From: Tubiluchus corallicola
Taxonomy: Eukaryota > Animalia > Priapulida
NCBI GenBank assembly: GCA_030141605.1
Contig: JAQGDQ010000100.1
Coordinates: 372,001 to 436,000 of the forward strand
DNA length: 64,000 nt
Reading direction: 5' to 3'
The notes below the pieces were generated by a model. That model was given only the letters and a program-made list of their open reading frames with translations, was not told where the DNA came from and searched no databases. Within the stretch, counting starts at the first letter, position 1; each line of letters opens with the position of its first letter. The translations under genes and the position numbers were made by a program. Below are positions 6,501 through 55,300 of the stretch, piece after piece.

Positions 6501-6811
6501 ATACAGTACCTAATGAAGTCTCAAACTTTAGCTGGAATTCAGTTCAGCTGCTGCAATGGCAAGTTGTTACGTAAGACACTGACAGGTAGCCATGAAACAC
6601 AGAACGCAGACGTAGCCCTAGGATAAGCATGATTTAAAAAGAGTAGGATAATGGCTATTGAGAAGAACCCAATTTTTTTAGCATCATTTTTGGGAACTTA
6701 TGTGGAGACAGTTTCACTAAATAAGTTACATATATATATATATTCTACACATTTATTAATTTGTTGCGTTCCACTAAAATCCATTGACGCCACATACGTT
6801 TTTATCAAACC

Positions 6812-7044
<233 letters not shown>

Positions 7045-16689: not shown

Positions 16690-16692
<3 letters not shown>
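14186..16692 (-). mobile_element. 5'-truncated non-LTR retrotransposon (RT + C-terminal CCHC; I/R1-like), inserted in (GA)n
   Basis: About 750 open codons from about 16690 to 14443 with RT motifs YRPITISS, QEGF, DYEKAFDSV, GLPQGS, YVDD and C-terminal LTGQG...CPCGEEEQTPQHILFRC. The 3' UTR has AATAAA and a TTA/TAA tail. (GA)n tracts flank both ends. No endonuclease domain is retained. Confidence 0.93.
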
Positions 16693-16742
<50 letters not shown>

Positions 16743-16751
16743 GGGAGAGTG

Positions 16752-16805
<54 letters not shown>
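16693..16805. repeat. (GA)n microsatellite, right flank of LINE
   Basis: Directly visible, interrupted near 16741-16753. Confidence 0.98.
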
Positions 16806-16809
<4 letters not shown>

Positions 16810-17667
16810 AGACAGACGGAAGCAAGCTCGCACTGGGTTATATGTAACTTGGATTAACTGAGGATATGAAACCAGCAGCCTGAAACGGAGTCAGAACCCA
16901 GGATCAAAATTAGTATTAATTATAACTACCACCACGAGAACAAAATTTGGGATGCTGTTTATTAGGTGCCAGTGACACAAATTGCAATGTGCAATTTGAT
17001 GTGTTTATCTTGGTACTTGTTGAACGAATTTCATTCCTTATCTTTCAATCATTACAATGTGGATAAATAAAATCAGAAACTCAAACCTGCTCCATGGGGA
17101 AACAGGCGATCATAGCGGACCTTGTCCACTTGACGCCAAGTTATAGGATTACTTCTTTTATGTCATGTCATTAGGGCCCCTAGGGGTGCCCTAGCAATGG
17201 GCCGGGCATGCGGGCAGGACAGGTAACGGGTTGCACCAACCATCCTTGTTGGTTTTTATAATTACAGGCATGGTGGATTAACGTTAACTGCGGATTAGCC
17301 ATAAACAGGGATTAGGTTAAGCTGACAAAGGTGAATAAAGGTCGGGTAACAGAGCTTGTCTTCTATCTCAACAAAATGTGGAAGTGTTGAAATACGGCGA
17401 GGCAAGATGAATAGAACGCAAGTCTGTTCCTATTTTGCTATTCTAAATTGTAGGTGAATTTTTGGCTACAGACCCGCCGATTTGTTAACTGCAGACAAAC
17501 ATACATGGATTCTACTGTTGACAAAGAATAGCAAAATCCCAAACTTTCTGAAGTATCTCCAGTTAATACTGGAAGAAAAAGAACAGCTTGATAAATGTGT
17601 GTAAACAGTGGCAATTCATACGTTTGTACCTTTTAGCATTAATTTGACAAAATTAAAAATCAAAGAT

Positions 17668-31900: not shown

Positions 31901-34543
31901 GCTTCAGCACATTACAAGTGAAAAAATCGGATTCTCCACAAATCAAGCAGATATCACATATATGTAACCTGGAGATATATTTTTTTCATTGCTTTTGTGT
32001 TTTAGTACACCTACTGCAGTAAATTACTTTATCATAGACACTTATGTCAGCAAAATTACAAAAAATTCATGCTGTGAAGTTTTATCAATAATTTTAAAAA
32101 TTGTAGTGCATTCCCTGACCAAAATATTTTGATAGGTTTTCACGAACTGGGCAAAAAATTACAGTTACGCCAACTGCTGCCTTTATAGTAAAATAAAAGT
32201 TACATCAAGCAGTTTGAAGAAGTCTGACATATCACTCACTTAACTCTCATGTAATGGTGGCAAGAGAATTTGCACTAATTGATTGCCGATTTTTATGTTT
32301 GCATAATAAAATTATTTTTGACAAACGCTATATGTGTGTTAACATCATTCCAGTGAACTCTGCAAAGACATAGAAATCCTTACCTCAATGTTTTTTGAAA
32401 CAACATTTTTTACAACTGCAGGAAATAAGTCACTAGCATCTTTGCCTTTAGCCACCATCTGAAACAACAAGTATGAATGTGAGCTACTACCTTATTCAAT
32501 TCTAATTGAATCAACTTATTGTAATATCTTAAGTCATTTTAAAAATGTAAAAGCATTTTTGTTTGACAGTAATTTGAGTCAAACAGGTAAGACAGTGGTC
32601 ACATGACTCAGAACTCAAAATAATCCACATAAATATTTATGATAACATTTTTTTTGATAAAATCTGCAGGCATTGACATTTTTATCTGTTTGATTATTAT
32701 TAGGTGTTTGATGCAATTGGTGCTAAATAACGATGTCACTCACTCACATAACCTGAATGAATGCCAATTCTATTATAACTAAACAAACACAGTAAATGTT
32801 CATCAGCATTTTTGAATATCCACAAAAAGTTGTAAACAAAACATGGATCTAAAGTTTAGTTTCAACTTTGAATAGTAGCGGAACGCCAGTTTTATTAAAG
32901 TCTTATTAAAATTAATAAATGTAACAAATTAATGGGTCTAATTTCTCACACTACATTTCTTAAGTATGCAATTACCTAGACTATGTCTAGAACCTGTACT
33001 TTTTAAAAGATAAAAATAGCATTGGATGAGTACAAGAATGCTTTGTTAACATGGTTGTAGGTCTTCCTGATTTATCCTACTCAGAAAAACGATTAAGTGC
33101 TAGATGCAAGCAGGTCATTTAATTGAAATTTTTAGATTATAAAGGGGTTCACTGACATTAATCCAATTTTTTTCATTTTAAACGAAACAGTGTGATCCTT
33201 CACATCCTACTCCATTTTGATAAAAAGTATAGACTTTAATGCCAACATGTTTCTGTTTATTAAATAACAGGTTAATAACTCAATTGATGGCCAACAGGTC
33301 CAGCTAGAGATGACATCACTACTGCACATAATTTCCAACAGCACAAATACTCCATGAGCATGTTACACATGCTTTAGAAAGTAAAAATTCAAGTACAGTG
33401 CTACTGTACAACTGTCAGTGTGACACACAAAATTAAAGTTTATCACTATGCTAACAGGAGCTCTTGAACAAGAGTGCTACATCACAAATCAACTACATCA
33501 TAAACTGAGAGGTAAAGCGCCTGTTTTTTGAGAAACACGCTCCCTAGATGTAGCCGCTAGTGCTATTCTAGTGAATGGTGACAAGTAACTCCGAAGAACC
33601 AGCCGCGCAAACATGAAATTAGATTTCTGTGGTAATAATTCTTTCATGCAAGACATTCGTAAAAAACAATGTATCCCATTTCAGTATTTTACTGGTTAGA
33701 CTGTATTGAGTTAAAGTTTAAGATAGGGTCTGGTTTTCCTTTAATAATTTGTCAATTAAAAGTCATAGTTTTAAGAGACATTCTAACACTGGTATCTACT
33801 AGTTTAGTTTTTCTAATGCAAAATCAAGCTATGAAAGAAACTGTAAATGCTGTTAATATCGATTCAATTGAAAGAAAATTAGATACATATCTGTACACAT
33901 GGAAACTTTTTTCTGAGCCTTTAAGGCTCGCTGAAGAATGCGTGCATGGTTGCACTATATGGCTGATAAATGGTTGATATTCTGAATACGGATTTTAATG
34001 ATTTCATAAACCACACTCACCTTGGATGGAGAGTAATTGTGCATAATAAAAATAGGTAGCCATGCATAAATCACAACATACCCCAATTATTCTTTTCATT
34101 GCTTCTAATTTCAAGTTGTCTTTGTTGCCATCCAACATAGTTTTCAAGTCTTCGTGTCTGAAACAGTTTGTGAAATGTTCGTCAGAGTAACATACAAGTT
34201 AACAGAACAGATTAATAAAAATTATCGAGTTTATTTTCAATAATTATTTTATTAAATATTATTTCTAAAAGCACATAATACATTTACAAGTTTCTGCAGT
34301 TTGCATGAATTAGCTTTCGATATTTGTTTTTTCATCCAAATGTCATAAGCAATTAGACGTGATGGTGACCAGGCCCCGGTAGCAATCATTCGCATGCGTA
34401 TAAGAACAAGTAACTATTTCATACCTTTTGTAATCTGCAGAAAAAAAGCTCCCGCTGGCAGGATCAACGCCCACTTCAGCATCCCCAGACGAGGAGCCTC
34501 TATCATTTGCATATGACTGAGTTACTCCGTTGTTGTTTGACAT
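19974..34543 (-). CDS. AP3B: AP-3 adaptor complex subunit beta (beta-3 adaptin), 21 coding exons, about 1051 aa
   Basis: Exons in transcript order: 34543-34425, 34157-34082, 32458-32384, 31702-31607, 30889-30729, 29940-29685, 29470-29361, 29241-29040, 28578-28444, 27727-27595, 27232-27012, 26480-26228, 26024-25788, 25422-25217, 23820-23739, 23426-23332, 22991-22803, 21518-21476, 21362-21180, 20485-20382, 20153-19974. All introns are GT-AG with compatible phases, total 3156 nt. Diagnostic peptides: [86 protein letters not shown]; [16 protein letters not shown]; Ser/Glu-rich hinge; LLLDFDD clathrin-box-like motif; ear domain ending [17 protein letters not shown]. Confidence 0.96.
20731..21030. 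repeat. Tandem duplication, 2 x 150 bp, in AP3B intron 19
   Basis: 20731-20880 and 20881-21030 are identical except for a TG/GT difference near the end. Confidence 0.95.
24130..25087. mobile_element. Non-autonomous hAT (Charlie-like) element with 8-bp TSD, in AP3B intron 14
   Basis: Termini CAGGGGTGTGCAAA...TTTGCACACCCCTG. Perfect TSD GTTTAAGC at 24122-24129 and 25088-25095. Subterminal GCGGCCC/GTGGCC motifs. Confidence 0.9.
24440..24586. repeat. Internal inverted repeat (about 52-bp arms, AT-rich loop) inside the hAT element
   Basis: GCCCCATCGTCTTCTTGGTCATAGCAGGTAGATCATTTTCACTTGGTTATTT pairs with the reverse complement of 24535-24586, with about 5 mismatches. Confidence 0.85.
26100..26210. 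repeat. Tandem duplication with 60-bp period in AP3B intron 12
   Basis: CTATTACTAGTTAAAATCCAAAATACAACATATTATAATTACAAAGTGGT is repeated at 26101 and 26161 with 3 mismatches. Confidence 0.9.
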
Positions 34544-34786
34544 TATTAGAATTATTTTAAAATTTCTCCCAGCTGGTAACAAAATGCCAACAAAACAAGA
34601 ATGGCTGCCCCCGGTGCATTATGTCATGTGACCAAGTAAGAAAGTAGTGATTTGGTGGAAACGCTCTGAACATGCGCATTTACTAAGTTGTTTTTATCTC
34701 GTCACATGAAATTGACGAGTCAATCTTTTTTCTTGACAGTAGTTTGTTAATTTTTGTGTGATTTCTGTGTTTTAGCTTTAAATACT
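34544..34786. promoter_or_regulatory. Bidirectional promoter between AP3B and SCAMP with MiT/TFE-type E-boxes
   Basis: 243 bp separate the divergent ATGs. GTCATGTGAC at 34623-34632 and GTCACATGA at 34701-34709 are CLEAR/M-box-like. CATGCGCA at 34671-34678 is NRF1-like. Confidence 0.7.
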
Positions 34787-37700
34787 ATGTCGGGGTACGA
34801 GAGTAACCCGTTTGCGGATCCTCACGCAGATAATCCATTTGCGGTATGTTACTTAGTTTCAGTTTTATTGGAATAACCGCCCTAGATTTTTTTAACTAGT
34901 AGTAGTACAGCATGTACGGCACTGCACCGTCAGTCATACGTGAATCGGCTAGTAATTAATTATTAAATTAATCATTTATAACATGCTGTGAAATGAAAGA
35001 ACATATTGGTTTGGGAATGTAATTTGCTTTATATAAACCTAAGTTTGTTGATGCCTTTTAAAGCTTTTTGAAATTTTTCAGGATCCATCTATCACGCAAG
35101 CAACTCGAGGAGCTGCACCTCCAGGACTTGACAATTACAACCCATTTGCTGATGGCCAGAAAGAAGCTACAGTTAGTGAAAATTTAGTTCATATGGTTTC
35201 GAAATTCCAGTTACTCCAAACTCATAAATAGGCCTATTGGTTTTGCAATTTTACCTTTTCGAAAATAAATAGCACCACATGCTATCCAACCTAAGTAGTC
35301 ATTACTAACATTGCATTTATCATTAATTTCAACTTTTCAGTCACCATCAGGGAGGCTAGAGATTGAACAGAGTTTCTTTATGTGTAATCCAAGAGGAATC
35401 CATAATACTTTGATAAACAAGCAAAATTCTAAATAATTTTTCCCAGTGTGTCATAGGTGCTTTGAAAATATAGGTAAATCTCAATAAAGGGAATCATGGG
35501 TCTTTTCCGGCACAGCATAGTAATCTCACTAAAATAAAAGCTCAAGCAGCTAGCTTTGCCTCTCACCGAGAAGCAGATTTGGTTATATAGTATTCAGAAT
35601 TTACAGAAATAACACCAGCATAGGCCAGTGCACTTAAATTGTCATTACAGTAATAAGACAAGCTCAGTTTTATTTATATGTTGTTTTGATAAATAATTTT
35701 TGTGTCTTTATTGTGCTAGATAAGACATATGTAATGTGCAGAGCATATGACATCCCTAATTTTTATGTAAGAATCGGAATAACACACTATTCAACGGGTT
35801 CATCTACTGTTTTTAAGGCTATTTAATTCAAAATAAAAACAAGAGACAAATAAATTTCCAAGCTATATTATAAAGAAAATAAAGCACAACAATCAAAATT
35901 ACATGAATGGCTTGCTACATTACTCCCCGAGGAAAGATGAGGATAGGAAAATGAATGCTCATAGCTTCTCTGACTGTTTGTTATGATGTTGCGCACAACC
36001 GGACGATCCTTCTAGTTTCTTCTACTATGATGATGCAGGCAATGGCAACATGATGACCCTCCATCCACCATAACAATGCAGATAACGAGAGCTAAACCAG
36101 TAGCTTCCGGCACTCCTCTTACCCCTGAATGGAATGGAACAACATCACACTTCTGTATCTTGACCAGCCCTCCAAACCACGTTACAGCAATGAGGTTGAG
36201 AAAAAAGCAGGAGAACACTGTCCTTTTTGCTGCCAACAACACCTGCCAATGACTCAGCTTTCCTTTACCATGGTGTATCCATTTGCCAAGTTACATCACA
36301 GACCATATACCAGTTTTTCCAGACAAATGCATGAACTACAAATATACTGGAACTTGCTAGAACAGGATAGGACAACAGTGAGTCTATACCAGCGAAAACT
36401 ATTAAATCAACTGTCAAGAACAGGTATTGCTTTTTCTGCACATGTAAACGAAGCACTCTGACAGGTAGGTAAAAAGCATTTCGAGTCTCAGAGGTAATGA
36501 GACGATGAATGAGTATACATACAGTAATGCAAGCCATGCGCCTCATTTACTATCAAAATTAACATCTTTGTTTATTTTTTCTCATTACTCATAAATGCAT
36601 TAAAGATGTGCTTACACTTCAAGTGAGACCTGAGAAATGGTAGTGAGTAACCTTCTAGGTAATAAGCTTACTGCTGCATAATACTCTTGCTGCACAAGTG
36701 AAAAATCTTTCATTGTATAAGAACTTATGCAGTTTGTAAGTTGCACATTAGCTGTTATGTGATAAACTACGTGTAAAGTTAATTGTTTTTTTTTAGATCA
36801 GAGTGCTTATTCACTGAAACTTCTGTAATATGCCTGGTGTTGGATCCACTTTATATTTTGATTGTTCAGTGTACATATTAAAATATCTATTGAAAGCCAT
36901 GTATGTCTCTATGAGAGAGTTAATGCTGCAGCGTTTGCATATTTTAATAACAGAAAACAGAGCTGCCAGAACAGTCAGCAATTTATTATCAGTTTATTTA
37001 CATTTGAATAGTTTATCAGTTATTCGTTTTTTTCCATATCATTGTGCAGATTTTAGAGTAGTCATTTCACATTAGAATCTGATGTTAATTTCATCACTAA
37101 GTAAAAACAGCCTGGCTAGTTTGGGTTTCTTGCATTCTAAAATTTACTGCTAGTGCTAATTACCCTTCTTGTCTGAATTCAAGTTACTGCAGTATAATTT
37201 ATATTTTATGTGCTTAAATCTTTGGCTATGATCTTTATTAATTATTTTCCATTGAATAATTAGACTTAGAAATGCTGTTAAATTAATATTTTAATTGTAC
37301 TTGGATCTTAAAATAAGATGCATTACTTTTTGCATTTTCCAGAAGCCGCAGTCTACTGGTCCTGCTGCTGCACCTGTCGCTAGTCCTGCACAACCGGCTG
37401 TGACACCCCATACACAACAGCCACCACCGCCAGTTTATACACCATCAGCTGCACAGAAAATTGACACATCCGAGTTACAGAAACGTCAGGAAGAATTAGA
37501 GAAAAGAGAAGCTGAGTTGGCAAAGAGAGAGCAGGAAATGCAGAGACAGCCTCATAATCGTAAGTTACTTTTGTTTGTAAATTGCTGTGCTGTGCAGTAT
37601 ACTTGGCTTTGTACGTATGCAAGCAACTAGTGGGCATAGACACATGCTCAGCATTATTGTTAATTATATTGTACAATGGTACTGAGCATCTGTGTGTGAT

Positions 37701-40700
37701 ATTTAAGACTGCACAGTTATATTGATGGTTAACAGAAGCATTCTTTTGGCCATGAGCTTTTTGATGTTTTACGACACCCTTCAAGAGTTTTTGTGCAAAC
37801 TTGTACGTATATATTAAGAACTTTTATTTCATTAAATGCCACTCAATTGTTTGACATTATTTCTTACCATGTGTTTAAAAAAGGTGTTTGCAAAGCCGAA
37901 ATGTGGCTAAATGACATTTTCTCTTTGCATCACCTGTAAAATTATACTTTTCAAAATACTTTTTGGTGTGATAAATATGGAAATATTGTTTTACTTTAGT
38001 TCGTCAAAACAACTGGCCTCCTATTCCTGATCGATGCCCATGCAATCCATGCTTTTACCAGGATTTCAATGTTGACATCCCATCAGAATTTCAACAGACT
38101 GTTAAAATTATTTACTATCTATGGATGTGTAAGTAATATTTGCAAAAATAATTTTAGTTATGTAGCATGCTCATTTGTGTTATAGGGCTATGATTGATGT
38201 GATGAGGTCGTTCTAAAATTATTGAAAGTGGATGACTGTGCAAGCAGGTAGTGATGGTTGTCTAATCAATTACTGAGTTAAATTCACATACTACGTACTG
38301 CTATGCAAAGCAATATAAACACTTGTTGAATCGTAACTCAGTGATTCAAAATTGCAAAAGTCTTGCCTTCACTGCTATGCAATGTTGACTTTATAACTAA
38401 CAACAGTTTAATAGTAAGAATGTACATTTTTGGCTATAAAATTTCAAATAGTTTTTAATATGCTGATGCAGCATGACATGGATGAATTCTTTACAACCTA
38501 GAGGTTGTTTCTATAGCAATACCTGTGGTTAGCTGACACGTGATTTGGCACCCTACATGTAACAAAGCTAAAACAAACCTAGAATGCTCTCTATAAGTGC
38601 CAGCTGACATTAACTTTTTCAGGAAAATGATTTTAGCTGATTTTACTTGTTTTGTTATTTTCAGTTTATGCTGGTACATTGCTTCTGAATGTGCTTGCTT
38701 CATTGGCATACTGGATCACAGCAGGTAGTGCAACTACGTTTGGGTTGTCAGTTTTGTTTTTCTTTCTGTTTACTCCTTGCTCATTTGTGTGCTGGTATAG
38801 GCCTGTCTACAAAGCATTCAGGTATGTTAACTCGTTCGAAATAACTCGTTGCCAAATTTATGAAAGAAAATGTAAATATAAAATATTTAAAGCTTACAGC
38901 AAAAAGTTTTGAAATGTTTAACGTATTGTTACGCCAAAATTGTTTGCATGCACCAACCATATTTCGTTCATTTGCTTTCCCGATAAGATTGCACACTGAG
39001 AGGGCATTGTCCTAACATGGGCAGCAGACTAAGAATCTCGGTCCCACTGCCGAGTTTGATCATTCAAGCTGAACATTTTGTTGCTTGCCATCATTAATTT
39101 GTGTAGTTCAGTGAGGCTTCAAAATTCCATTAAAACATTATTTTACTTTATTGGTAAAACTAATAAAGTCCTGAAAATCATATAACTGATTATAATTAAA
39201 TGAACAACTTTCATCTTTGGAATCTTGTGGGTAATTTCTTTTGACATGTAAAATAACTGACAAGACAACACAGTTTAAAAATAATTTTTATAGCAGCAGT
39301 ATTTACATATTTTATCCAACTTGTGATCGATCGGTATCGGTGAACAACAAAGTTGATCGGCTAGTGATCAGCTCAGTACCCAAAAATGTTTATCGACCCA
39401 CCACTACATAATTTGGGAAACACGAAGCTTAGGTAGTGAATAGTCAACAAAGTAATGCCGTGGAATTTCTTAACAGCAGTTAGCCTTCTTACTTTACAAT
39501 AATATTGGGGTGGGCAACATGAACATTTGCCGCTTCATGTACTCATAAGTACTTATGGTTAATTCTGCACTAGCATAGGGCAAGGCAATACTAGTATTTT
39601 AGTAATTTAATTAAAAGTTTATTAAAGTATTCCAATTTAAATGACGGATGATAATATAGCATTGTAGTTATAAAACAAATTATGCTGTCAAAGTTTCTTG
39701 CTACCATTTTTTACCATACTACAATGTCCCCTGTATCAACTAGCTGTGTGCAATGTGAATGACTTCCTAGAATTTTAATAACGTTGAATTTTTATGGTTG
39801 ATAAAGGCAAACCAACAAAGATGCTACTCCAAATTAAGGACAGAGTTTATAACCTATAATAACAACAACAACAATAACAATAATAACCTGTATTTAAAGC
39901 AGGATTTAAATTCAACAGACAACGCAAGCCTGCCATGGGGCTTTTATTGCCGACTGTAAATAACAAACTATAGCAACATAACAGAGATTATTATTATCTC
40001 ACTTTTACCTTAAATACCAAATCTGAAAGTTTTAGAGTCAATGTCAAGGTTGAGCAATTGTGTGCTGGAATGATCCTCCAGCAGCTCCTGCTCTGATGAT
40101 TCGTAAATTGTTCTTTCTAGTTAGATATGTGATATTTAATGTACAAATGTCACACTGTGCACACCATGGTTGGTTTATAAACTCTACTTATGCTGTAGTA
40201 CTTGAAATGGTAAATCTTTATGAACTAAACACTGATACTCCATTGAACCATCAAGTCCAGTCCTTTTGGTGGCTGTTACCAAATAGTATGTTGCCATTAA
40301 AAGTAAGCTTTTGTCACTATGTTGGTATTGCATAATGTACCAGTTCTAAGTTAAACTGTAAGTTGCGACAGTAATGAGGCAGTCCAAATGGTTGGATTTT
40401 TTCTGTGAGTTATCATATTTTCTCTGATATTACCTGATTACTAGCCTGAGTTTCTAATTGTACCAGTTCTATAATTTTGTCTTAAGAATGATCATTTGTT
40501 TTAATTGTATTTGGTTTGTTTTTATTTCAGAACTGACAGCTCTATCAACTTTTTCTTGTTTTTCTTCATATTTTTCATGCAGTTTGTCATTTCTATAGTG
40601 CAAGCTCTCGGCTTTGATGGTTTTGGCACATGGTAAGTTTTACTGGGGATGTGTAAAGTGCTACATTTAGTTGCTTTTAGACATACCTTTAAATGCATGT

Positions 40701-43700
40701 TCAAGATATGAAGGACTACAATATCAGTGCTACTAAAGTCTGAATGGAATTTTTAAAGTAACATTTTCAGTGTTATAACCATCAGTGGCACGTTATATGA
40801 AAAAGGAGCAATTTAGTTTTGATATGATATCGCCTGGCACTTATTTTCCAACTTGACCAAAATGTAAAAAAATCTTTTATAAAACAAGCTGTACACTTTT
40901 TTCTTAAGAAAAGGGTGTTCTACCGGCACTCGAAGTTACTGACTTCGTCACTTATAGACTGTCATTTATGACAGTTACCTATTCATGTGGAGTTTTCAGG
41001 TTAATGTTAGTGTTAATGTTTTATGAATTGAGTTTCTCCGCATCTTTCATTTTTCACTATTTAATATTTAAGTAGCAGTAATGATGATTATGATGTTTTT
41101 CAACTATACTAAAAGATGCAATAGAAAATGGCGTGTATGCTGTGTGTATACCAAGAAGCCTTCTATCTATGTATGCTCATATCTCAGTTTGCCGGACAAA
41201 AGCGGGGACTCGGCTGATGATGAACTTTCCCACGTTCATGGTGCTTAAACAGACTTGTGACTATTTTCAAGAAAGGTAGTCAAATGTCTTGTGATAATTA
41301 TAGAAGAATTTCTGTAATGGACTCAATTGCCTAGGTTTATGATAGGTCCTGTGTAGACGCCTTAATATGTGGTTTTCACCCGACAGGGAACAAGCAGGTG
41401 CTCAGAAAGGTCGAAGTTGCACCGAATGGATCGTTACTCTCAGATTACTGATGGATTATGTCTTATTTCGGAAAGTTAAACTGTTTGTGCTGTTCGTTGA
41501 CTTTTCCAAGGCATATGATCGTGTCTCCAGGCATGGTCTCATAGTCTCGCTTAAAGCTCTTGCATGCGCTATCATTACGCTTTGTGCAATTGCTGCCTTG
41601 TACAGTAATACACAATTAGTATTAGGAGCTGCTATAATAAGTGTAACCTTAGATGTTAAGCAAGGATCCCCTTCCTCCTGTTTTCTGTTCACACTAAGTT
41701 AATAAGCTTTTAAGAAGCCTCAAGGAAAAGTGCAGACCAGATGGTTTTTCTAGGGATGCTTCACTGTTTGTTATTGATGGATGATACTATTATCATATCG
41801 ACAACCAGAGAAGCTTTTAAGAAACCTCAAGGAAAAGTGCAGACCAGATGGTTTTTCTAGGGATGCTTCACTGTTTGTTATTGATGGATGATACTATTAT
41901 CATATCGACAACCAGAGAAGGACTTGTGGAAAAGATAGGCATCCTTGAAGAATTTTGTCGTGAGTCAGGAATGATAATTAACGAATTTAAAAACAAATTT
42001 ATGGTTATTAACGGCAATGAAAGGGATAAAGGGTTATCATCCGATTACAGCCCTCACTGGAAAAACATTGCGAAGAAAAGTTTACCCAAGTTCTTAAATA
42101 TGTGTCATTTGTGAACAAAAACTCACTATTCCCATTCTGGGTTAAGAAAAAAGTGATGGACGCGGTCCTGCTATCATCTATTTTCTACAGCTGTGAATCC
42201 TGGTTGACTGGCAATTTTAAACCGGTAAATGTGATGTACAATTCTGTGATTAAAGCATTGCTTGGCATCAAGAAGACAACCGCTAATGACTTATGTTTAG
42301 TCCAGCTAGGATTACCTTCTGCCAAAGTGTACGTTCAAAATGCTCAATCAAGGTTCTTTAAACGGATAATTGAATCGAGGGCCAACGAGCCCGATGACCC
42401 ATTTTCAATCATGTGGAATTTGTGCTCGGAAGCGAATACACCATGTGTGCAATATGTGAAAGCTATCCTTCGTAAAATGGATATTACCTCTGACGACTTC
42501 GAGAACAGGAAACAACGTATCAGGGATTCCAAAAGAACTAAACTGTGCACCTATCTCTATCTGAATCCCGAACTATCTGTCAGTGCAATGTATAGTGTTA
42601 AAGTAAATGAGCTCCATAGAATTAAAACATCTCGGTTATGCCTCTCCTCACATAACCTAGCTATTGAGACTGGAAGATGGGTAAGGATAAAAAGAGAAGA
42701 CAGGCTATGCTCCTGTCCTGGCTTAAGCATTCAAACAGAAGAGCATGTTATCTGTTTTTGTCTTCATGAAGATAACACTGAACTGAACTTCAATGATCTG
42801 CATGAATTTTTCAATGGAAACCCAATGTTATATTATGAATTTGTAAATAAGCTCTTTAGCAATTTTTGGACAGTAATGATCATGTTATGTGATCAAAAGT
42901 GTTTATCGTGAATTTGTAAATAACCCTTGAGCTGTTTTTGGACAGTAATGATCATGTTATATGATCAAAAGTCCTTTTTTGTAGTAAACTATGGACTGAA
43001 TCAAAATATCATGTTTGACTATCTCTTAATCAGTCAATAAACATATATATAGAATCAGTCACCTAATTGTCTCAAAAACGTCTGATACGGGCCGTTTCTA
43101 TGTAAAAGTATATAAAAGTTGTTTGCAATTGACTCCACATGTAACTCCTCAAATAACTCCACATAATTGATTGTTAACCACTATATATGTTGTTAACACA
43201 TTCTGATTAAACCACTATATATGCTGACATACAAGCTACACATGTGTCGTTACACGCTGCTTTGATGTAAACAAAGTGACGGCCTGCGAACTAGTGGTCA
43301 GCTCGCAAAACAATACTCTGTGTCCATACTATGCAGGACTTTTTAGCGGTCCAGATTTTGTCCAATTCTTCCGATATCCGCATAAAAGCGAGGTCCAGCA
43401 AACCGAGATATGAGCATAACCAAACTTTTGACATAAAATTCAAGTCATTTTAGTGCATATTTAGGAAAAAGTGCTTTTACACCTCACGTGTTTACCAGTT
43501 TGCACTTTGCAAAAACAACAGCTTCTAGATATATATTGGCCTATTTGTCTGCTATCTGATTCTTTCTTACCTATTTGTTAATGCTATAGTGGATTTCTCA
43601 ACGGACTTGGACACTTAACCAACAAAACAGCGCAGGCTTATGCAGTCGGAGGCATAATGTGCTTCATGGGACTGCTGTTTGCTGTTTGTGCTGCTCTTGA

Positions 43701-45669
43701 TTTCTTCATGTTATTAAAGGTATTCAATGATCCCACTGATTGTGCTTATTATCTGGGCATGATGCAGAGACAGTTTAGTTTTGTCAGTGTCATAAATTCA
43801 TGGATTATGGATTATTTTGTTTTTTATGCTATTATTTAATTCCATATACATTTTTTCTTAAGTTCTGCATGTTTTTTATAGCGGATGGATCAATTCATTA
43901 AACCATATTACTCACCATATTGGTGCAGGCATTGTGATGCTGATTGTATCTTTGTTCTTCACTGTATTTGCTGCTGGCACTATCCTAATGCTTATGAAGG
44001 TAGATTGTTTTGAGTTCTAGATGTGAACATTAATTTATGTTTCAGTTATCATTCATTACTATAGTGTATAGCTTGTTTTAAATTAAGGTAGATGTGTTTC
44101 CATTTATACAGTTGCAAACTTTTTTAGTGATCAAAAATCTTGTTTTGTTAAAATCACATCACGACTCATTCTATATCAAATTAATGGCATTGCAATTTGG
44201 CATTAAAATATTTCCAATAGTAATTGTCAACTTCAGTTTATAATGCGTTTGCAAGTAAACCACTTTATATATATATATATATATATATATGTATACACTT
44301 TCCCTCAATGAGGCAAATCATTTCCAAGTACCAGCCGAGTAATTTCTTTATATTTTGTGCCCGGTAATAACTGATACTGCCACTGAAGTTAGTGAGCCCG
44401 TAGTGGAGGGGTCCAAAGCCGGGACCCTGCGGTTGGCTGCTCCTTTTCCTCCACCCAACCGAGATGTTGGGTCGCCATGAGGTATGGTGCATCTCCTTTT
44501 AGCAACCACAGCTGGAATGTGGCCATATGGTAGCAGAAACCACCTAAAAAGCAATAACTTGCAAAAATCGATAAAAATCAGTTCACAAATTATGCATCAT
44601 ATCACCTTGAATTATGTGCCAGGTAATGTCTGCTTGATTAATTATCTAGTCACATGGCCAACATTAGCCAGGAACTAATCAGTCTAGCAGGAAGTCCAGA
44701 TTCAAGATTGAAGGCTCGTGTAGCCCAGGTGCTTGATCGTGATTTGTGTATGGCTTTAAATGAAAAAATCTTTGCTAGGGTAGCACATTACAGGCCGAGT
44801 CTACCAGCCTTATGTGGTGGTCTGGATGCATGGGTTCATTATAACAGACATTTCCATTATAACCATAATAGATGAGACAAGCAAAACTAGTCTGTTATAT
44901 ATTCAAAATCAGTTTTAATAAGATCCTTATAAGGAGGGTTTACTATTATTATGAGTTTTAAGTAATTTTTAGAAATTCAAAAAGGCATTTCTGTTCCAAA
45001 AAGGCTCGCTGCTGTTCTGTTCACCTGCTTTTTGTTTTTTTCAGAATAAAAGATAAATTGATGTTTTTAGTAAACTATTTTTAATAAAAAGCAAGTGATG
45101 TTTTCACATTTTAATTACTTTCTGTCAGAAATATAAAGCCTATAATGGTGTATTTTTATAATTCTACAGACTTTAGCTGGGAACCTTGGGCCTACCCAAA
45201 ATTGTTTCTGGTACTGCCCCACCTTTTCCTAATTGTCGTCATCAGTTGTTTGCCTATTCAGTAATGAAGTTTCAGCAAGCTGAATGTTTGAGTCGTATTA
45301 GACCTGCGCAAATCAGAAATGTATTAAAACACACCAACTGCAAAAAATGAAATTGTTTGGTTATTATATCTCACCTTCACAAATTGTCATAATCAATGTT
45401 TACAAATTTACATATTTGATAAACAAAATAGCAAACAAAACAATTTGTGGTTCAGTGCTGAATGCAGTATTGTTTGTTAATGCATCACACATTATGCTTT
45501 GATTTCTTACGTGTTTTTTAACTTTTTTTAGGTTCATCGTATATATCGAAGCACTGGAGCTAGCTGGGCAAAAGCACAACAAGAATTTGCTACAGGAGTT
45601 ATGACGAATGAGGGAGTTCAGCAAGGTATCGGAGCTGCAGCTAAGAATGCATTTACTGGACGATATTAG
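34787..45669 (+). CDS. SCAMP: Secretory carrier-associated membrane protein (SCAMP1-like, NPF-containing), about 335-339 aa
   Basis: Exons: 34787-34843 ([19 protein letters not shown]), 35082-35171 (DPSITQ...YNPFADG), 37343-37559 (Pro-rich then coiled coil [16 protein letters not shown]), 38000-38128 (NNWPPIP...[11 protein letters not shown]), 38665-38821 ([19 protein letters not shown]-peptide), 40531-40632 ([13 protein letters not shown]), alternative 43590-43719 or 43882-43999, and 45532-45669 ([23 protein letters not shown]...stop). Phases are consistent. Confidence 0.95.
41270..43051 (+). mobile_element. Decayed 5'-truncated LINE in SCAMP intron 6 (CR1/L2/Crack/Proto2-like C-terminus)
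   Basis: Frameshifted RT fragments [41 protein letters not shown], then YSCESW and [16 protein letters not shown]...REDRLCSC...EEHVIC. AATAAA near 43037 is followed by (TA)n. The 5' boundary is approximate. Confidence 0.88.
41704..41917 (+). repeat. 107-bp tandem duplication inside the intronic LINE, spanning the RT catalytic motif
   Basis: 41704-41810 and 41811-41917 are near-identical and each encodes [15 protein letters not shown]. Confidence 0.92.
43590..43719 (+). CDS. SCAMP: SCAMP alternative exon 7A (lumenal loop + TM4)
   Basis: Acceptor ctatag|, donor |gtattc; 130 nt, phase 2->0. Encodes (C)[43 protein letters not shown]. Confidence 0.85.
43882..43999 (+). CDS. SCAMP: SCAMP alternative exon 7B (lumenal loop + TM4)
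   Basis: Acceptor ttttatag|, donor |gtagat; 118 nt, phase 2->0. Encodes (C)[39 protein letters not shown], which has the CGWI motif typical of SCAMPs. Confidence 0.88.
44265..44470 (-). repeat. Possible tRNA-derived SINE with (TA)n tail
   Basis: GC-rich island with a degenerate B-box-like segment (GGTCCCGGCTTTGGACCCC on the minus strand), ending in the (TA)n tract at 44265-44290. Confidence 0.35.
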
Positions 45670-48027: not shown

Positions 48028-48664
48028 GATCACTAAGTGTACAAAATAAAAGTACAAAATACTATGAATTATCGTTACAGGCATATACACAATGAATATT
48101 TTCTTACTAATCATGACAGGTGAAGCGAAACAAAAATATCACACCTTTTTAATCCGTTAAAAACACAAAAGTGTTGGTATCTAGACTGTCATTGTTTTTT
48201 AATAACTGTAATGCAAAATAGCATTGAATTTGTATAATTATGACAATCTATTACAGTATTTATCAGTTATTTAATTTGTGACTTCAATGTAAATATAATA
48301 ACTATATTTTTTGACAATAGGTTTGTGATTTCATTATCACATGACTACATGTGTTGTTTTTGGAAAGTTGGTAAGCAATGACAGTGATCAGGCCTCGGCG
48401 AATTAAATGGTAAATATAACGGTGTACCGCATTTTGTGGGAACTTGCAATATTTGTGACTGGTGCGCCGTTTAGCGTATGCAGTTTGAACTAAATTCCAA
48501 CTTTCCCAGGCAGTGACCTAGTAATTACTGGAAGTAACAGTCTTCGAAATAATTCGTATAGTTTGAGTCTTAAGTTTGCAGAAATAAGACTTTATTGGCC
48601 TAGTGGTATCTCCTTATTTAAATCAGCATTTTGTGCGCGGCCATTTGGATTCGGTTTGTGTAGC

Positions 48665-49247
48665 ATGGCGAATTGTGGTGATTCGTTACACAAACAAAGT
48701 GAAACTGTGAAATCTTCAGCGAAAATTGAAGAGGGCACCACCCCCAGTGTTGTGATTGTGGGGGCAGGGCTTTCGGGTTTAGCTGCTGGTGAAGTACTGA
48801 AAGCGCATCATTTGAACAATTTTAAGATGCTTGAAGCTACAGACAGAGTTGGAGGTCGCATTTGGTCATCGAGTTTAGGTGATACTTTGAGTGAAGTTTG
48901 CACTTTATTATCTTTAATTTTGTCAGTTATGCAGTGAATTGGGAATTTCTGATTTACGTTATTTTTCCCCTTCAGACTTTTTCCACAGGCAGAACAACAC
49001 AGCCTCAAGGAAAATGAAAGCAAACAGCTAACTCCTAATTATTGAATCAGCTACCCTTAAAAAGTCTGTTCACATATGTAGGGTGCAAACCAAAACATGC
49101 ATGGTGGGAAAGTTGAGAGGATTACTCACCGTGCTAACTGTGTTATTTCAAAAAATCTTACTGTGGGTATATAAAGGACATTAAGATGGTACATATTATC
49201 CATTCCATTTTTGTCAATGGTTAAACTTATAATGAGAAGTAGGTGTC

Positions 49248-49315
<68 letters not shown>

Positions 49316-52300
49316 TTTACGCTAATGCAGATCATTCTTCCGTTTCCTGCTTTTGTGCAAACAATCAGCTGCTGTATCAGTGTATCAACCAAAACCACAT
49401 GCACAGCTGTGTTAACACTTGTAACATCTGCATCTGTATAGTTTTTTCTACCTTAAACCTAATTGGAAAACAGTTTTTATTGAGACAATCTTTTCCATGC
49501 TTATTTCTGCCTACACAGTATTTAATGTTAAGCAACTTGTATCAGTAATGATTTAAACTAAATGACCACTGGTATTATTATGTTTTTGATTAGTGTTGTC
49601 TGTTACCCAATATTAGATGTCGGATACCCAGATATTTAGCAAAATTCCAACATTTCCCGATATATCGAATTGCCGATAATTGCTTAAATAGCAGCTGATC
49701 TTTATCTGCTTAAACTTCCAATATGTACAATTTTTTCAAGGAAGTGGGTGCTATAACTTCACACCTTTGAGCGACCTTGTTACCCTGGCCTAAATATTTG
49801 AGAGTTTGCTAAGTACAACCACATCTGTACAAAATGAAAATTATATGGTCCTTATTAACTTTTGCATAACTGAACTCATTGTGAACACTGAAACCTGTCT
49901 AGCTGTGGTCAATCTATAGCATATTCTGAATAAGAACTTTAGGTTGACTTTAGGAGCTAGCTGCAAGAAACTTTCAAGTCTAGTTAACCATGCTGTTTTC
50001 ATTGATAATGGAAATTCTTTCAGCTTATTGAGCTTCAAAGTATATAATCTTTTTTGGTCCTGGTAAAATGGTGCTTTCGTCTGTGTTAAGGCTAGCCCTA
50101 GACTGTATGCTGTAGATTAGCTCGCCTTAAATGATGATGGGGCTGGTCTGCTGTTTTGTCTTACAAAGAAACAAAAAAATATTAATTTGCAATCATTTTT
50201 TAGCAATCACTTTGTTTTCTGCTAGACTGTAGTATGTAGCAGAGTTTTGACTTTAAAAATTTTGTACTATAGCACAAGCCTCTCTCATATGAGTAGACGG
50301 CCACTCTGCATGGATCCATATGACATCTATGTTGATAACATGGAAGAAAATCTTAAAAATAATCCACTATGAATCGAGTGGGCAGTAGAGCAGTTGTATC
50401 ATACCATGTTCTGTGTAGCTGTAATTCATTGCGTTTACGTATTAGTTGTGTTGCAACTAAATACTATTTTGCAAGATTATATTGTTGCCCCAACGAAGTG
50501 GAAAACTGCAGAATATTATCGGTCTCGTTTGCCCATCTGTAGACAATTTTCTTTGAACTGGAATAATCTAGGAAACTGAAACTAAGTCTTAGAAATAATC
50601 GACAAGAAGTTGAGCAGCCAGTAGAGTCGTTACATCCCTGCCAACACTCACGCATTACAAGTGTGTCATACACATTTTAAGTCTTTCACTCGGATGCACG
50701 CTTCAAGTTTCAGTTCTCACGCAGTTCTGCAACTTTGCATGCAAGGTTACAAATCACCTGGCTTCCTTTGCTCATCAAGACTAACCACAACACAGTTAGT
50801 AGTATTAATTTCAATAATACAGTAGCATTCATGACTCTCATGACATATGTTGTGCTATAGGGTATTATAATTATCAAAAATTAAGCACTTTTGGGTGCTA
50901 CTGAACCTTTTTCATTTGTCCAAAAGAACACTTGTGTATAAAGTATTTTGAACTATAATAACAAAGCTCAACAATAACCAAAAATTACCCTAATTTTTTT
51001 AATGATTTGATACCCAAAAAGCAAAAATTTCTCCCGCATAATTTGACCCCCCCCCCCCCGAACCCTCCCAAGAGCGAGATGATACCAGGGCTTTCTACGT
51101 TTCACTCTCATTTTCATATCAAATGGATGGAGGTTCGCAGTTGTATCATACCATGTTCTGTGTCGTAATACACTATGCAGCTGTAACTCAGTGCATTTAC
51201 ATTTATGTTAGTTGTGTTACAACTAAATGCTATTTTGCAAGGTTATATTTATAGTTGCCCCAAAGAAGTGGGCAGCTATAGAATATTGTCTGTCCAATCT
51301 GTCAGTCTGTTCGTCCGTCCACTCTTTCGTTTCTGGAGTATTGCCTCAATGCCCAAATGAAGTGGAAAACTATTGAATTACCAGTTCCATTGGCCTGCCA
51401 CCACTTTTTCTTGCCACTGAAGCAATCTAAGAAGTTGATGCCTCGCGCATGGGGTGGAGGATAGATTGTCGTTCCGGCGTGGAGCCTGTTTATTTTTGGA
51501 TCAATCGATATAGATTTTTCACATTTTTTTAAAGATCTGCATATAATAACTATAAACAGTAATGTGCCTGCACTGAGCGCTGAGGTACGTGTAACCAGGC
51601 GAAGGATAAATGCTAGTGACAGCTAAATGAATGACTCATTGGCAACAGTATAAGATAACAAAAATTAATAACATGCTTTAAACCAGCACACGTTTTGACT
51701 ATGGTGTAGATTCGAGTTCTGTTTGTATTTGAATCTGTTACAATAGTATGCATTTTTCACAGAGATTTAGTATAATTTTATGTGTGAGTGCAGAAAGCAC
51801 ATCTATCAGTAATCTCCATGTACACTGTTCAGTTTAACCCCCACAATATGATGGTGGCTTGTGGTTTTTCACAGCCTTTGAGTATGTCTGTTTCTGAATT
51901 TAGAATTTTATTTATAATCTTACACCATGTGCATTGTAACTTGTTTACACCCATGTGCATTGGTCACTTTTAAAGCTTTTCCATTAAAAGCTAGCCTTCC
52001 AGTTCTGTCTGTAACAAATCCTAATTTTAACTGACCAGATGCTCTATATGATGATAGCTGTTTTTTCACAGAAATTTAGTATCATTTTAAGTGTCAATGC
52101 GGAAAATACATCTTTGCTGTAGTCTCGCGTATGCCTATCTCATTGGGCAGATATGCACCTCTGTTGACGGCTGTAGTAGTACAGGTGTAGTTTTATGCAT
52201 ATTAGCTAAGAAATCTGAAGTTTCTAATTTTATGCATGTTAGCTAAGAATTGTGGGTAATAATTCGTAAAATAAACCGCAATGGTTTATAAAAATTCTGG

Positions 52301-55300
52301 CAATCACAGTCGTAATTAATTAATGAAATTAGGAAAAACTGCCCAGATATAGTCTAGTGATAATTAGTCGTGAGAGCCCTGCATATTAGACGTCACACGA
52401 TTAGACTGCACTACCAGGCATAGTCAAGTAATAAACATGATCATGCAGGTGGATTTAGATCTAAATTTATTCAGTCTGTCAAGTACTAAACTTTCGGCCG
52501 TGCTTGAACATTTGCATCTGAATTCATTCTTGCTTATAAAAATTATTGTAATGCAAGTGTTTGGTATTAAAATTGCGCTTCTGTTTAGGAGGGCGTGTTA
52601 TAGAGCTGGGAGCTAATTGGATTCATGGCATGCTTAGCAATCCAATTTTTGAACGAGCATTTGAACTTGGATTAGTAGATTTACCAAGAAGTAACAGGTA
52701 AGTAAAACAAGTGTGTTTAAATAGTTGGTTTTATGTATTAACTATTGATCTCCAATAGCACAATGAATTCATTAAACCTGTGTATGGTGAATGCACATAC
52801 TGGTGCACATGTGTGCATGCTATGAAGAGATAGTTAAATGTCAGTGTAATGAATTTAGGGCATGTGCAGAATTTGAAATGCTATTTACTGCTGTTAGTAG
52901 TTCGTACATTGCTGTTTTTGGTATATGTTCTGTGTTTGTTAACAGAGTTTGCTTGTTTATTTGTTATATTTGGGAAATGACTAGAATTTAATTAATTTTT
53001 GACAAGTATGTTACAACTATTTCAAGTGCTATTTGACCAGTAAAGTTGTCATTAAATAAGCTTTTACATCAATTACAGTGATTACAGGAGCGGTAGTAAG
53101 TTGTGTATAATGTGTTTTTGCAAGTAATGCAGCGTTGTGTTGCTTTAAGTAGTTATTTGATCTGTTGAGTCACACAGTTTCAAAGTTACAATGGTGTTGG
53201 GAGACAAAGAACAGTTCTACTCCTACTCTTTTGATTGTTTATTTAACTGACTTATTAATAAGACTACAGCGAACTAAATGCTGGTTGTTACATTGGTCGC
53301 CAACTCGCCTTTACTCACTAATTTGTGGGGATATAGCCTATACTGATAACAACATTTCCTGCAACTAACGCAGCAGCATAGTAGGCAAGAATGAGGACAG
53401 AAATTGACCGTGGTGGTCCTAGTGAGAAGCTGGCCTTTTTAGCTCATCAGCCAATAAGAATTTGGCACTTAAAAGAATTTTGACTTCAAAAATTCAGCAA
53501 AAAATATAAGAAGCTTATGTCATCTTTACTATATTAAAGTTATTTGTAGCTAGAAAAAATCAGGTCACAAAGTATTTCCTTTTATTCATTTTTTTTCAAT
53601 TGGTGCCTGTAACCCATGTCATCAGTTTTCCATAAGTTTGAAAATTTCTGTTTTTTCAATTATTAATGCACTTTGGCTGATTTGAACAGTTTCCATGAAT
53701 GGAGTTTTTTTAAGAGAGGCTACTGCTTAGTGAGGTTCTCTAACCTTAATTTTTGCACTGTTTTCTACATAAGTTTTGAAAGTATAAGCTATAAACCGTA
53801 ACCGTTAATGTGGAGAGTGGTCGCCGTATGCTTGTTCATTCCAAGCTTATTCCCTAACATGTTTTTTTTACTAAAGGAAGTGGGAGACTTTGGGGATTTT
53901 TCAAGGAAAGTAACTTCTCAGATGATCTGTTCTATGTAGACACGTATGAAGGGAAGTCTGGGGCAGCGATTTTAAGCAAACATTTGATACAAATCATACT
54001 CCTGTATTTGCCTTTATTGAAATAAATTGTTTACACACATTTCATATTAATACTTAATTAATTAGCCCCTTGTTTGTCCTAGCTTTTTTAAACATATAAA
54101 TGACTTTAATGTAACCTTGACTAAAAACGTAGCTCTGTCTTTAAGGGCATTAACAATTCTGAATAGAAAAGCTATCTGGAAACTGTGCAGAAAATCTCAA
54201 AACTCTGGAATTAGCAAATCGTTTCTTTTTTAATAGTAAAACTTTTTTAGGCTTTTATTATTTTTGGATTCAGTAGTCATGTTCATAGTTTTTTAAATTT
54301 AGACTGAAATGTTTTTTCCAGGTACTGCAATGTGATGGCATGTACAGATCAAGGTAATTACGTGCCAATATCAATAGTTGATGAAGTGAAACAGCACTAT
54401 TACGAAAGTTTCAATGCAGCTTGTGACATTTACACACTACAGGTGCCTGTTATTGAACCCACAAGTGTCGGTGCATTTCTGAAGCAGCAGTTCCGTAAGT
54501 GGGTATCACAGTTTCCCAACGAGGATCAGCAGTTAATACGCTTGATGGTTTTCGAACAGATGTTGAAACGCGAAGCGAGCATTGATGGTGTGCACGATCT
54601 CGATGAATTGGACCTCGCAGAAATAGGTGCATATGCAGAACTGCCGGGCGGAAATATTCGCATTAAAGACGGTTTTAGCAATATCATTGAAAACATCTAT
54701 CAGACGCTACCCAAAGATTGTCTGATGCTAGAGCATCCAGTGCGGTGCATTCATTGGGACTGTGGAGACAAAGTCAGAGTGGAGTGTTCTAATGGCAAAG
54801 TGTTTCTTTGTGACCATGTGATATGTACTGTATCGATTGGCTATCTTCAACACCATCATGTATCGTTATTTGATCCCATTTTACCAGAAGAAAAACTAGC
54901 AGCTTTTTCGCGAATCGGTTTTGGAAATGTAAATAAAATTTTCATCGAATTTGAAAAGCCAATGGACTTTTTGGACTTGTCTTTGAATGAGATTCTTCTT
55001 TTATGGGAGCCGAATGGAACAGAGGAAGAGGAGGATGAAGAAATAAACAAGAATAACTGGTTTAGAAAAATATATTCCTTTAAGGTTTTGTAGCTTTTTT
55101 ACTATTTATATTAGAGCTTTGTAACACACTACATAAAATTTCTTTCAAACGAATATGATATGACAGTAATTTTCGTCTTTACTGTGCTCAGGTGCATGCA
55201 CGATAAGTAGCAACAGACCTCAGGTGCAGGCCTAATGTTTTAATTGTGTGTTCGGTTACCTGCGCAAACACCTACTGTTGACTTGTTGATATATTTAGTT

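What the first reader, a model, noticed from the sequence alone, without database searches (positions are those of the whole stretch)
43590..43999. Tandem mutually exclusive exons swap the lumenal loop and fourth transmembrane helix of SCAMP
Seen: two homologous exons (130 and 118 nt) lie 162 nt apart. Both start in phase 2, completing the Cys codon TG|T or TG|C, both end in phase 0 at ...MLLK/MLMK, and both have good splice sites and open frames. Either exon alone joins exon 6 to the last exon in frame, while including both or neither shifts the frame. The peptides are strongly diverged but keep the same architecture (GFLNGL...[15 protein letters not shown] vs GWINSL...[15 protein letters not shown]), which implies an old duplication still under selection. 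7A has a potential lumenal N-glycosylation sequon (NKT), whereas 7B has a His-rich loop (NHITHH) that could respond to vesicle pH or metal. Inference: one gene makes two vesicle-membrane isoforms by exon switching, where vertebrates use several SCAMP paralogs. I do not recall this being described for SCAMP but cannot check the literature.
Basis: partly seen in the sequence, partly recalled or inferred. Interest (0 to 1): 0.82.

Follow-up and report, generated by a model that had tools for sequence, protein, structure and literature searches.

The report
Swappable fourth-helix exons in SCAMP
A marine worm's gene for SCAMP, a vesicle-trafficking membrane protein, carries two tandem, intact copies of the exon for its fourth membrane helix that are likely used one at a time, and gene models of five other invertebrate phyla swap the same exon, so this is likely an old splice switch that we found described in no paper.

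Summary
The gene groups with Priapulus (100/99). A spliced contig joins exon 6 to 7A; nothing shows 7B spliced here, but Priapulus caudatus models use a 7B-like exon (54% identical). In 19 of 22 isoform sets from nemerteans, a brachiopod, molluscs, hemichordates and a crinoid, this exon is swapped between identical flanks. 7A is nearer nemertean long exons (51%) and 7B nearer mollusc short exons (59%) than they are to each other (35%), hinting at a pre-protostome duplication, but an AU test does not reject a priapulid-only one (p 0.18). Not supported: glycosylation or histidine sensing (neither conserved), enforcement by frameshift/NMD (stops fall in the last exon), and vertebrate paralogs replacing the switch (all sampled are B-like). 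Exons 5 and 6 are swapped in other lineages. No paper found in ten searches; the scan noted a three-exon version on another genome before. Verdict: real, new member of a known kind.

The parts
43590..43719 (+). Alternative exon 7A (long type): short lumenal helix, turn with 4 extra residues, and TM4 of SCAMP
   Evidence: spliced to exon 6 in a contig of run X2; nearest to nemertean long exons, 51%
43720..43881 (+). 162-nt GT-AG intron between the alternative exons; branch-like TTAAT 117 nt from the donor, too far for steric exclusion
43882..43999 (+). Alternative exon 7B (short, GW type; ancestral-like): same structural segment
   Evidence: DNA of run X1 matches it with 0-1 differences; 54% identical to the exon in Priapulus caudatus models; splicing here not shown
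34787..34843 (+). SCAMP coding exon 1 (two NPF motifs)
35082..35171 (+). SCAMP coding exon 2 (third NPF motif)
37343..37559 (+). SCAMP coding exon 3 (proline-rich region, coiled coil)
38000..38128 (+). SCAMP coding exon 4
38665..38821 (+). SCAMP coding exon 5 (TM1-TM2, E peptide); single copy here
40531..40632 (+). SCAMP coding exon 6 (TM3); single copy here; phase-2 donor shared by 7A and 7B
45532..45669 (+). Last coding exon (cytosolic tail, stop); 3' UTR follows, covered by X2 contigs to at least 46391
40880..40897 (+). 5' arm of a candidate 18-bp intronic RNA helix that would bracket both alternative exons (weak lead)
   Evidence: -24 kcal/mol; 2 of 44 control blocks as strong
44063..44080 (+). 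3' arm of that candidate helix, 64 nt past the 7B donor

Best explanation
Exons 7A and 7B are two intact tandem copies of one SCAMP exon in a likely priapulid worm, and they are likely spliced mutually exclusively, giving two full-length proteins (339 and 335 aa) that differ only in a predicted short lumenal helix and the fourth membrane helix. Shown: exon homology, phases, open frames, the exon 6-7A junction, and the same swap in gene models of five other phyla. Inferred: that 7B is used here, and that the choice is made by regulated competition between the two 3' splice sites (RNA-binding proteins, possibly helped by a long-range intronic helix), because steric exclusion, U2/U12 incompatibility and last-junction NMD do not apply. 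Inferred function: the cytosolic machinery (NPF motifs, coiled coil, E peptide, tail) stays fixed while the membrane-facing surface of TM4 changes, which would alter intramembrane partners, oligomer packing or vesicle sorting by tissue; 7B is the conserved, ancestral-like form and 7A the derived partner. Age: likely at least as old as the priapulid-nemertean split (about 0.6), with further independent duplications in deuterostomes.
For: Anatomy. Spliced contig exon 4-5-6-7A in run X2. 7B DNA confirmed in run X1 and scoring 47 bits on an exon-7 profile, above 7A's 41. Priapulus caudatus X1/X2 models, the closest sequences (77% over exons 4-6; 100/99 sister), use a 7B-like exon. 19 of 22 isoform sets with divergent exon-7 peptides have identical exon-5 and last-exon peptides: Tubulanus, Lineus (3 variants), Lingula, Liolophura, Aplysia, Pomacea, Octopus, three Mytilus sets, Dreissena, four oysters, Glandiceps, Saccoglossus, Antedon (3 variants), one unnamed cluster. 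Mya and Nucella GenBank models string 3 and 2 copies in tandem, non-W copy first as here. AlphaFold models of a Lineus long form and the Priapulus short form put the exon on a 9-residue helix plus TM4, local pLDDT above 90. 7A groups with nemertean and prawn long exons at 98/87.
Against: No transcript with 7B, and none joining 7A or 7B to the last exon, was seen for this species; the X2 contig ends inside 7A and differs from the window at 9 of 106 bases there, so X2 may be a close relative. Relatives' isoforms are database gene models whose read support I did not see, and no relative's genomic DNA could be fetched. Only B-type proteins were found for Priapulus caudatus (2 of 2). The AU test does not reject 7A+7B as one clade (p 0.18) or 7A+7B+Priapulus (p 0.16) on 39 columns; in that 42-row tree the 7A-nemertean node itself is weak. 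7A does not prefer a mollusc non-W profile over a mollusc W profile (36.0 vs 37.5 bits). A Glandiceps model (P0119) skips exon 7 altogether, so the choice is not airtight everywhere. No functional test of either isoform exists.
Confidence: 0.87

Rival explanations
1. 7B is a silent, vestigial exon in this species and only 7A is used.
For: The only spliced contig uses 7A; no X2 contig touches 7B.
Against: 7B is open, has intact splice sites, fits the family profile better than 7A and is 54% identical to the exon used in Priapulus models although the constitutive exons are only about 73-77% identical; X2 is a single 13-Mb contig set that drops rare variants.
Confidence: 0.06
2. The two exons are loosely regulated cassettes: double inclusion or double skipping is common and yields proteins with altered tails.
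For: Stops fall in the last exon, so such mRNAs would escape junction-based NMD; no steric or U12 block; a Glandiceps model skips exon 7.
Against: Of 347 fetched proteins with an exon-7 domain, 3 hold two or more, and none is a RefSeq isoform: two GenBank models with read-through linkers and one exact internal duplicate.
Confidence: 0.06
3. On age only: the exons are mutually exclusive but arose by a priapulid-specific duplication, one of many convergent duplications of this exon.
For: AU p 0.16-0.18; Antedon's three exons form their own clade at 99/95 and both hemichordate types sit among deuterostome exons; exons 5 and 6 were duplicated separately in lampreys, bivalves and hemichordates, so the gene duplicates exons readily; 7A is equivocal on mollusc profiles.
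Against: 7A and the nemertean long exons share a 4-5 residue insertion at the same place, a non-W second residue, Gly at -17, Ala at -13 and Asp at -7, and 45-51% identity against 35% between 7A and 7B.
Confidence: 0.35
4. The functional point of the switch is a lumenal N-glycan on 7A versus a pH- or metal-sensing histidine loop on 7B.
For: NKT and three His are in the sequence; the listed X2 differences leave NKT intact (4 of 9 differences listed).
Against: Sequon in 2 of 30 A-like and 10 of 52 B-like exons; two or more His in 2 of 52 B-like exons; Asn 7 residues from TM4.
Confidence: 0.07

Closest known systems
Tandem duplicated exon substitution events / mutually exclusive homologous exons (PMC9741552 passages, PMC5740500 passages, PMC4165533 passages)
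   Same: Two homologous same-phase exons in tandem, each giving a full protein that differs in one homologous segment; ancient, enriched in membrane proteins, prone to convergent duplication.
   Different: SCAMP is not named in the main texts of PMC9741552, PMC5740500, PMC4165533 or PMC4417111, nor in the held supplements of PMC9741552, PMC8373072 and PMC5740500. The swapped part is a whole TM helix of a trafficking tetraspan, not an ion-channel or cytoskeletal segment, and the frameshifted forms would not be junction-NMD targets.
Database isoform pairs of invertebrate SCAMP (RefSeq X1/X2... of Lineus, Tubulanus, Lingula, molluscs, hemichordates, Antedon)
   Same: Same exon, same boundaries, swapped between identical flanks; long and short types in nemerteans match 7A and 7B.
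   Different: Annotated automatically, without comment; none from an ecdysozoan with both types was seen in my sample; Priapulus caudatus showed the B type only.
Vertebrate SCAMP1-5 and Drosophila Scamp (PMC4235465 introduction and passages; PMC10316736 passages)
   Same: Same family (PF04144), four TM spans, cytosolic ends, E peptide; the window's gene has the NPF-bearing N-terminus of the SCAMP1-type.
   Different: Sampled vertebrate SCAMP1/1-like/3 proteins carry one short W-type exon 7 (91 of 91 parsed). The fly paper mentions transcripts RA, RC, RD but no exon swap.

Membership tests
SCAMP family (PF04144) | Pfam SCAMP domain over the four-TM core with E peptide | tested here: met
   Exons 4 and 5 pass the curated cut-off, 7B matches profile 125-164 below it, 7A alone no hit; profile hits on all exons
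Tandem duplicated mutually exclusive exons | Neighbouring homologous exons, same phases, similar length | tested here: met
Tandem duplicated mutually exclusive exons | Each exon alone restores the reading frame and the same structural segment | tested here: met
   models of relatives' A and B forms
Tandem duplicated mutually exclusive exons | Both exons occur in spliced transcripts of this species | tested here: inconclusive
   exon 6-7A junction in X2; 7B not covered in that one small contig set; B type used in Priapulus models
Tandem duplicated mutually exclusive exons | The two exons are not spliced together | not testable with these tools
   No raw RNA reads available; indirect only: no RefSeq isoform with two copies among 347 proteins
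Tandem duplicated mutually exclusive exons | Alternative exons kept in other species | tested here: met
   19 of 22 isoform sets, five phyla; by protein models, not genomic DNA
Sterically enforced MXE (alpha-tropomyosin type) | Donor-to-branch distance under about 50 nt in the intervening intron | tested here: not met
   162-nt intron; branch-like motif 117 nt from the donor; a motif at +17 is followed by six AGs before the acceptor. Branch point not mapped experimentally
U2/U12-incompatible MXE | Mixed U2 and U12 splice sites | tested here: not met
   All donors are ordinary GT sites without the U12 donor consensus (consensus recalled)
NMD-enforced MXE | Double inclusion or skipping makes a stop more than 50 nt upstream of the last junction | tested here: not met
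   Stops lie 32 and 73 nt downstream of the last junction
Docking-site/selector MXE (Dscam, 14-3-3 type) | Conserved competing intronic RNA pairings | tested here: inconclusive
   Best duplex of the inter-exon intron (-26.3) is matched or beaten by 9 of 22 real-intron controls; one 18-bp helix bracketing both exons, 2 of 44 controls as strong; conservation not testable
Splice-form subfunctionalisation in vertebrate paralogs | Paralogs fix different ancestral alternative exons | tested here: not met
   91 of 91 parsed named vertebrate SCAMP1/1-like/3 proteins are short W-type; unnamed representatives that I recall as SCAMP2/4/5-like are also GW, 39 aa

The most novel reading that the evidence does not exclude
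The A/B split of the TM4 exon dates from the last common ancestor of protostomes and is kept whole in priapulids and nemerteans, while crustaceans/insects kept an A-like form and nematoids and chordates a B-like form; more widely, every membrane-coding exon of SCAMP (5 in lampreys, 6 in bivalves and hemichordates, 7 in at least six phyla) has been turned into a mutually exclusive cassette, so animals tune SCAMP by combinatorial helix swapping in its four-helix bundle, pointing to an unrecognised intramembrane specificity code for vesicle cargo.
Probability: 0.4. Interest if true: 0.68.

Novelty: new member of a known kind. Interest (0 to 1): 0.48.

Why it matters
SCAMP function is usually assigned to its cytosolic parts (NPF repeats, E peptide). 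Repeated, long-kept swapping of exactly the membrane helices says the helices themselves carry specificity, and gives natural isoform pairs, identical elsewhere, with which to test that in oyster, mussel, Aplysia or octopus. It also adds a deep-time case to the catalogue of homologous-exon switches and a case where exclusivity cannot rest on steric hindrance or junction-based NMD. It does not open a new mechanism, and the isoforms already sit unremarked in automatic annotations.

Tried and rejected
No genome is held for the window, so gene copy number and repeat status of the helix arms were checked in the window only. Run search: no RNA holder listed, 2 runs in all. X2 has no contig on 7B or on the coding part of the last exon, and X1 none on 7A or exon 6: holes in contig sets, not evidence. 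Protein search with 7A alone: 0 of 16 candidates scored. One search's upstream exon coordinates were off by one and its isoform translations are void; redone. One search counted 21 of 68 taxon rows with two or more variants; Arion and Bradybaena pairs differ in all flanks (likely paralogs) and the Physella pair differs in the last exon, so they failed; most single-variant rows had one or few proteins, so they are not absences. Trees left out near-duplicate congeners and Arion/Bradybaena (69 of 94 rows, 42 of 94). One search's vertebrate list of 100 held one Aplysia protein by my slip (the single non-W row); 8 did not parse, of which 3 show GW by eye and 5 lack the exon. No solved SCAMP structure by sequence and no Foldseek match at E 0.001 or better. 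Third exon-7 copy or second exon-5/6 copy in the window: none. Docking/selector search: not above real-intron controls; the 18-bp helix looked unique under a post-hoc cut (0 of 46) but 2 of 44 under an energy rank. Mollusc-trained profiles failed to class 7A as mollusc-A. dN/dS could not be computed (no orthologous DNA). Hubbard 2000 (PMC14966) is not held. Ten paper searches gave no paper on SCAMP exon swapping; subscription journals, the Drosophila MXE catalogue of Hatje and Kollmar (recalled, not seen) and bioRxiv supplements were out of reach.
Full report
Observation. With the upstream exons corrected (one search was off by one there), the gene has eight coding positions: 34787-34843, 35082-35171, 37343-37559, 38000-38128, 38665-38821, 40531-40632, either 43590-43719 (7A) or 43882-43999 (7B), and 45532-45669. 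All introns are GT-AG. 7A gives 339 aa, 7B 335 aa. The peptides are 35% identical with one 4-residue gap; 0 of 5000 shuffles score as high. A profile built from 92 exon-7 peptides of other animals hits only these two stretches in 34-47 kb, at E 3.5e-14 and 5.9e-16, and whole-protein profiles show no second copy of exon 5 or 6. Including both or neither exon shifts the frame, but the stop then lies in the last exon.

What the gene is. Exons 4, 5 and 7B match Pfam SCAMP. The best relative is Priapulus caudatus: 77% over exons 4-6 and 79% over the last exon, sister to the window at 100/99 in a 27-row tree of constitutive exons. The animal is therefore likely a priapulid; no genome is held.

Transcript evidence. 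Two runs were listed, neither on record as RNA. One contig of X2 skips three GT-AG introns and reads exon 4-5-6-7A, so it is spliced RNA and 7A is used; it ends inside 7A and differs at 9 of 106 bases there, so X2 may be a close relative. X2 has nothing on 7B. X1 (unspliced) matches 43868-44078 with 0-1 differences per contig, so 7B is real DNA. Use of 7B in this species is not shown.

Relatives. Searches and cluster look-ups gave 433 proteins. Among 22 sets with divergent exon-7 peptides, 19 have a pair whose exon-5 and last-exon peptides are identical (17 also in exon 6): two nemerteans, a brachiopod, twelve mollusc sets, two hemichordates, a crinoid and one unnamed cluster; Arion, Bradybaena and Physella failed. 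Lineus, Mytilus edulis and Antedon have three variants. Two GenBank models read straight through the cluster, three copies in Mya and two in Nucella, non-W copy first as in the window. Of 347 proteins with an exon-7 domain only those two and one exact internal duplicate hold more than one. One Glandiceps model skips the exon with a frameshift. These are database gene models; that RefSeq isoforms usually rest on RNA-seq alignments is recalled, not seen. Priapulus caudatus showed only a 7B-like exon (2 of 2 proteins; 54% identical).

Age. Each window exon is closer to an exon in another phylum than to its sibling: 7A 51% to Lineus and 45% to Tubulanus long exons, which carry the same insertion; 7B 54-59% to mollusc short exons. 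W at position 2 and Gly at -17 are nearly exclusive across 94 exons (52 W-only, 30 G-only, 12 mixed; rows are related, so the p-value is not meaningful). In a 69-row tree 7A joins the nemertean and prawn long exons at 98/87. Against this: only 39 columns; the AU test does not reject 7A+7B (p 0.18) or 7A+7B+Priapulus (p 0.16) as a clade; and mollusc-trained profiles class 7B firmly as W-type (65 vs 28 bits) but leave 7A undecided (36 vs 37.5). Antedon's three exons form their own clade (99/95), a separate duplication. So 7B is the conserved, ancestral-like exon; a shared protostome origin of 7A is likely but not shown.

What is swapped. AlphaFold models of the Lineus long form and the Priapulus short form, not of the window's own proteins, place the exon on a 9-residue helix after the TM3 loop, a 2-3 residue turn, and the whole fourth TM helix; the long form starts TM4 about a turn earlier. 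Four TM spans with cytosolic ends (PMC10316736, passages) put the short helix on the lumenal side. The E peptide, NPF motifs and tail are untouched. All 91 parsed named vertebrate SCAMP1/1-like/3 proteins have the short W-type exon, so paralogs did not split A from B.

How exclusivity might be enforced. Known routes (PMC5740500 and PMC4165533, passages) are steric hindrance, U2/U12 incompatibility, NMD, competing RNA structures and RNA-binding proteins. The first three do not fit: 162-nt intron with a branch-like motif 117 nt from the donor, ordinary donors, stops in the last exon. The inter-exon intron has no duplex better than real-intron controls. One 18-bp helix, 40880-40897 with 44063-44080, would bracket both exons; each arm is single-copy in the window and 2 of 44 control blocks are as strong, so it is a lead only. 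By elimination, regulated competition between the two acceptors is the likeliest mechanism (inference).

Comparison and novelty. This works like, and on anatomy and conservation is a member of, the tandem duplicated mutually exclusive exon class; the two transcript-level criteria are open in this species. SCAMP is absent from the texts and held supplements of the human and worm catalogues I could search; the fly Scamp paper (PMC4235465, introduction and passages) reports a single gene and no such swap; ten searches (listings only for the rest) found no description. Subscription papers and unseen supplements may bear on this. The scan itself noted a three-exon version on another genome (e1-8074594), seen after I had the nemertean, mollusc and hemichordate pairs. 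New here: a likely ecdysozoan with both types, the long/short match to nemerteans, the negative tests above, and the finding that exon 5 (three lamprey genera) and exon 6 (mussels, oysters, hemichordates) are swapped too.

Verdict. Real; likely a functional mutually exclusive pair (0.87); new member of a known kind; interest 0.48, rising to about 0.68 if the protostome-wide origin and a helix-borne specificity code hold.

Noticed in passing
proteins P0028/P0262, P0255/P0256, P0258/P0260 (Petromyzon, Lampetra, Lethenteron): Lamprey SCAMP1-like isoforms swap the whole exon-5 segment (TM1 end, TM2, E peptide) between otherwise matching flanks: a likely vertebrate mutually exclusive pair in SCAMP that touches the E peptide.
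   Followed up: partly
proteins of Mytilus, oysters, Glandiceps, Saccoglossus; P0181 (Pinctada): Exon 6 (TM3) is also swapped in these lineages and occurs twice in tandem in the Pinctada model, giving combinatorial exon 6 x exon 7 isoforms.
   Followed up: partly
window 41172-43418: A 2.2-kb element with 26-nt terminal inverted repeats and reverse-transcriptase fragments inside (41346-41699, Pfam RVT_1; more at 41821-42908) sits in intron 6 and ends 172 nt upstream of 7A; high depth and loose ends in X1 mark it as a repeat.
   Followed up: partly
window about 21000-34600, minus strand: An adaptin beta-type gene (Adaptin_N; looks like AP3B1) lies head to head with SCAMP; the AP3B1-SCAMP1 head-to-head pair in human is recalled, not tested, and would be a deep microsynteny.
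   Followed up: no
window 48494-55090, plus strand: Flavin amine oxidase exons (Amino_oxidase), polyamine-oxidase-like by recall, downstream of SCAMP.
   Followed up: no
window 14446-16890, minus strand: An 815-codon open frame with a reverse transcriptase domain (RVT_1, E 8e-27): a LINE-like element.
   Followed up: no
window about 6800-7050: A long trinucleotide (ACT/CTA) microsatellite.
   Followed up: no
proteins P0208, P0317, P0220, P0283: Named chelicerate proteins (scorpion isoform X3, spider) have short exon-7 peptides while unnamed chelicerate-like ones have long ones, suggesting both types exist in chelicerates; no within-species pair was seen.
   Followed up: no
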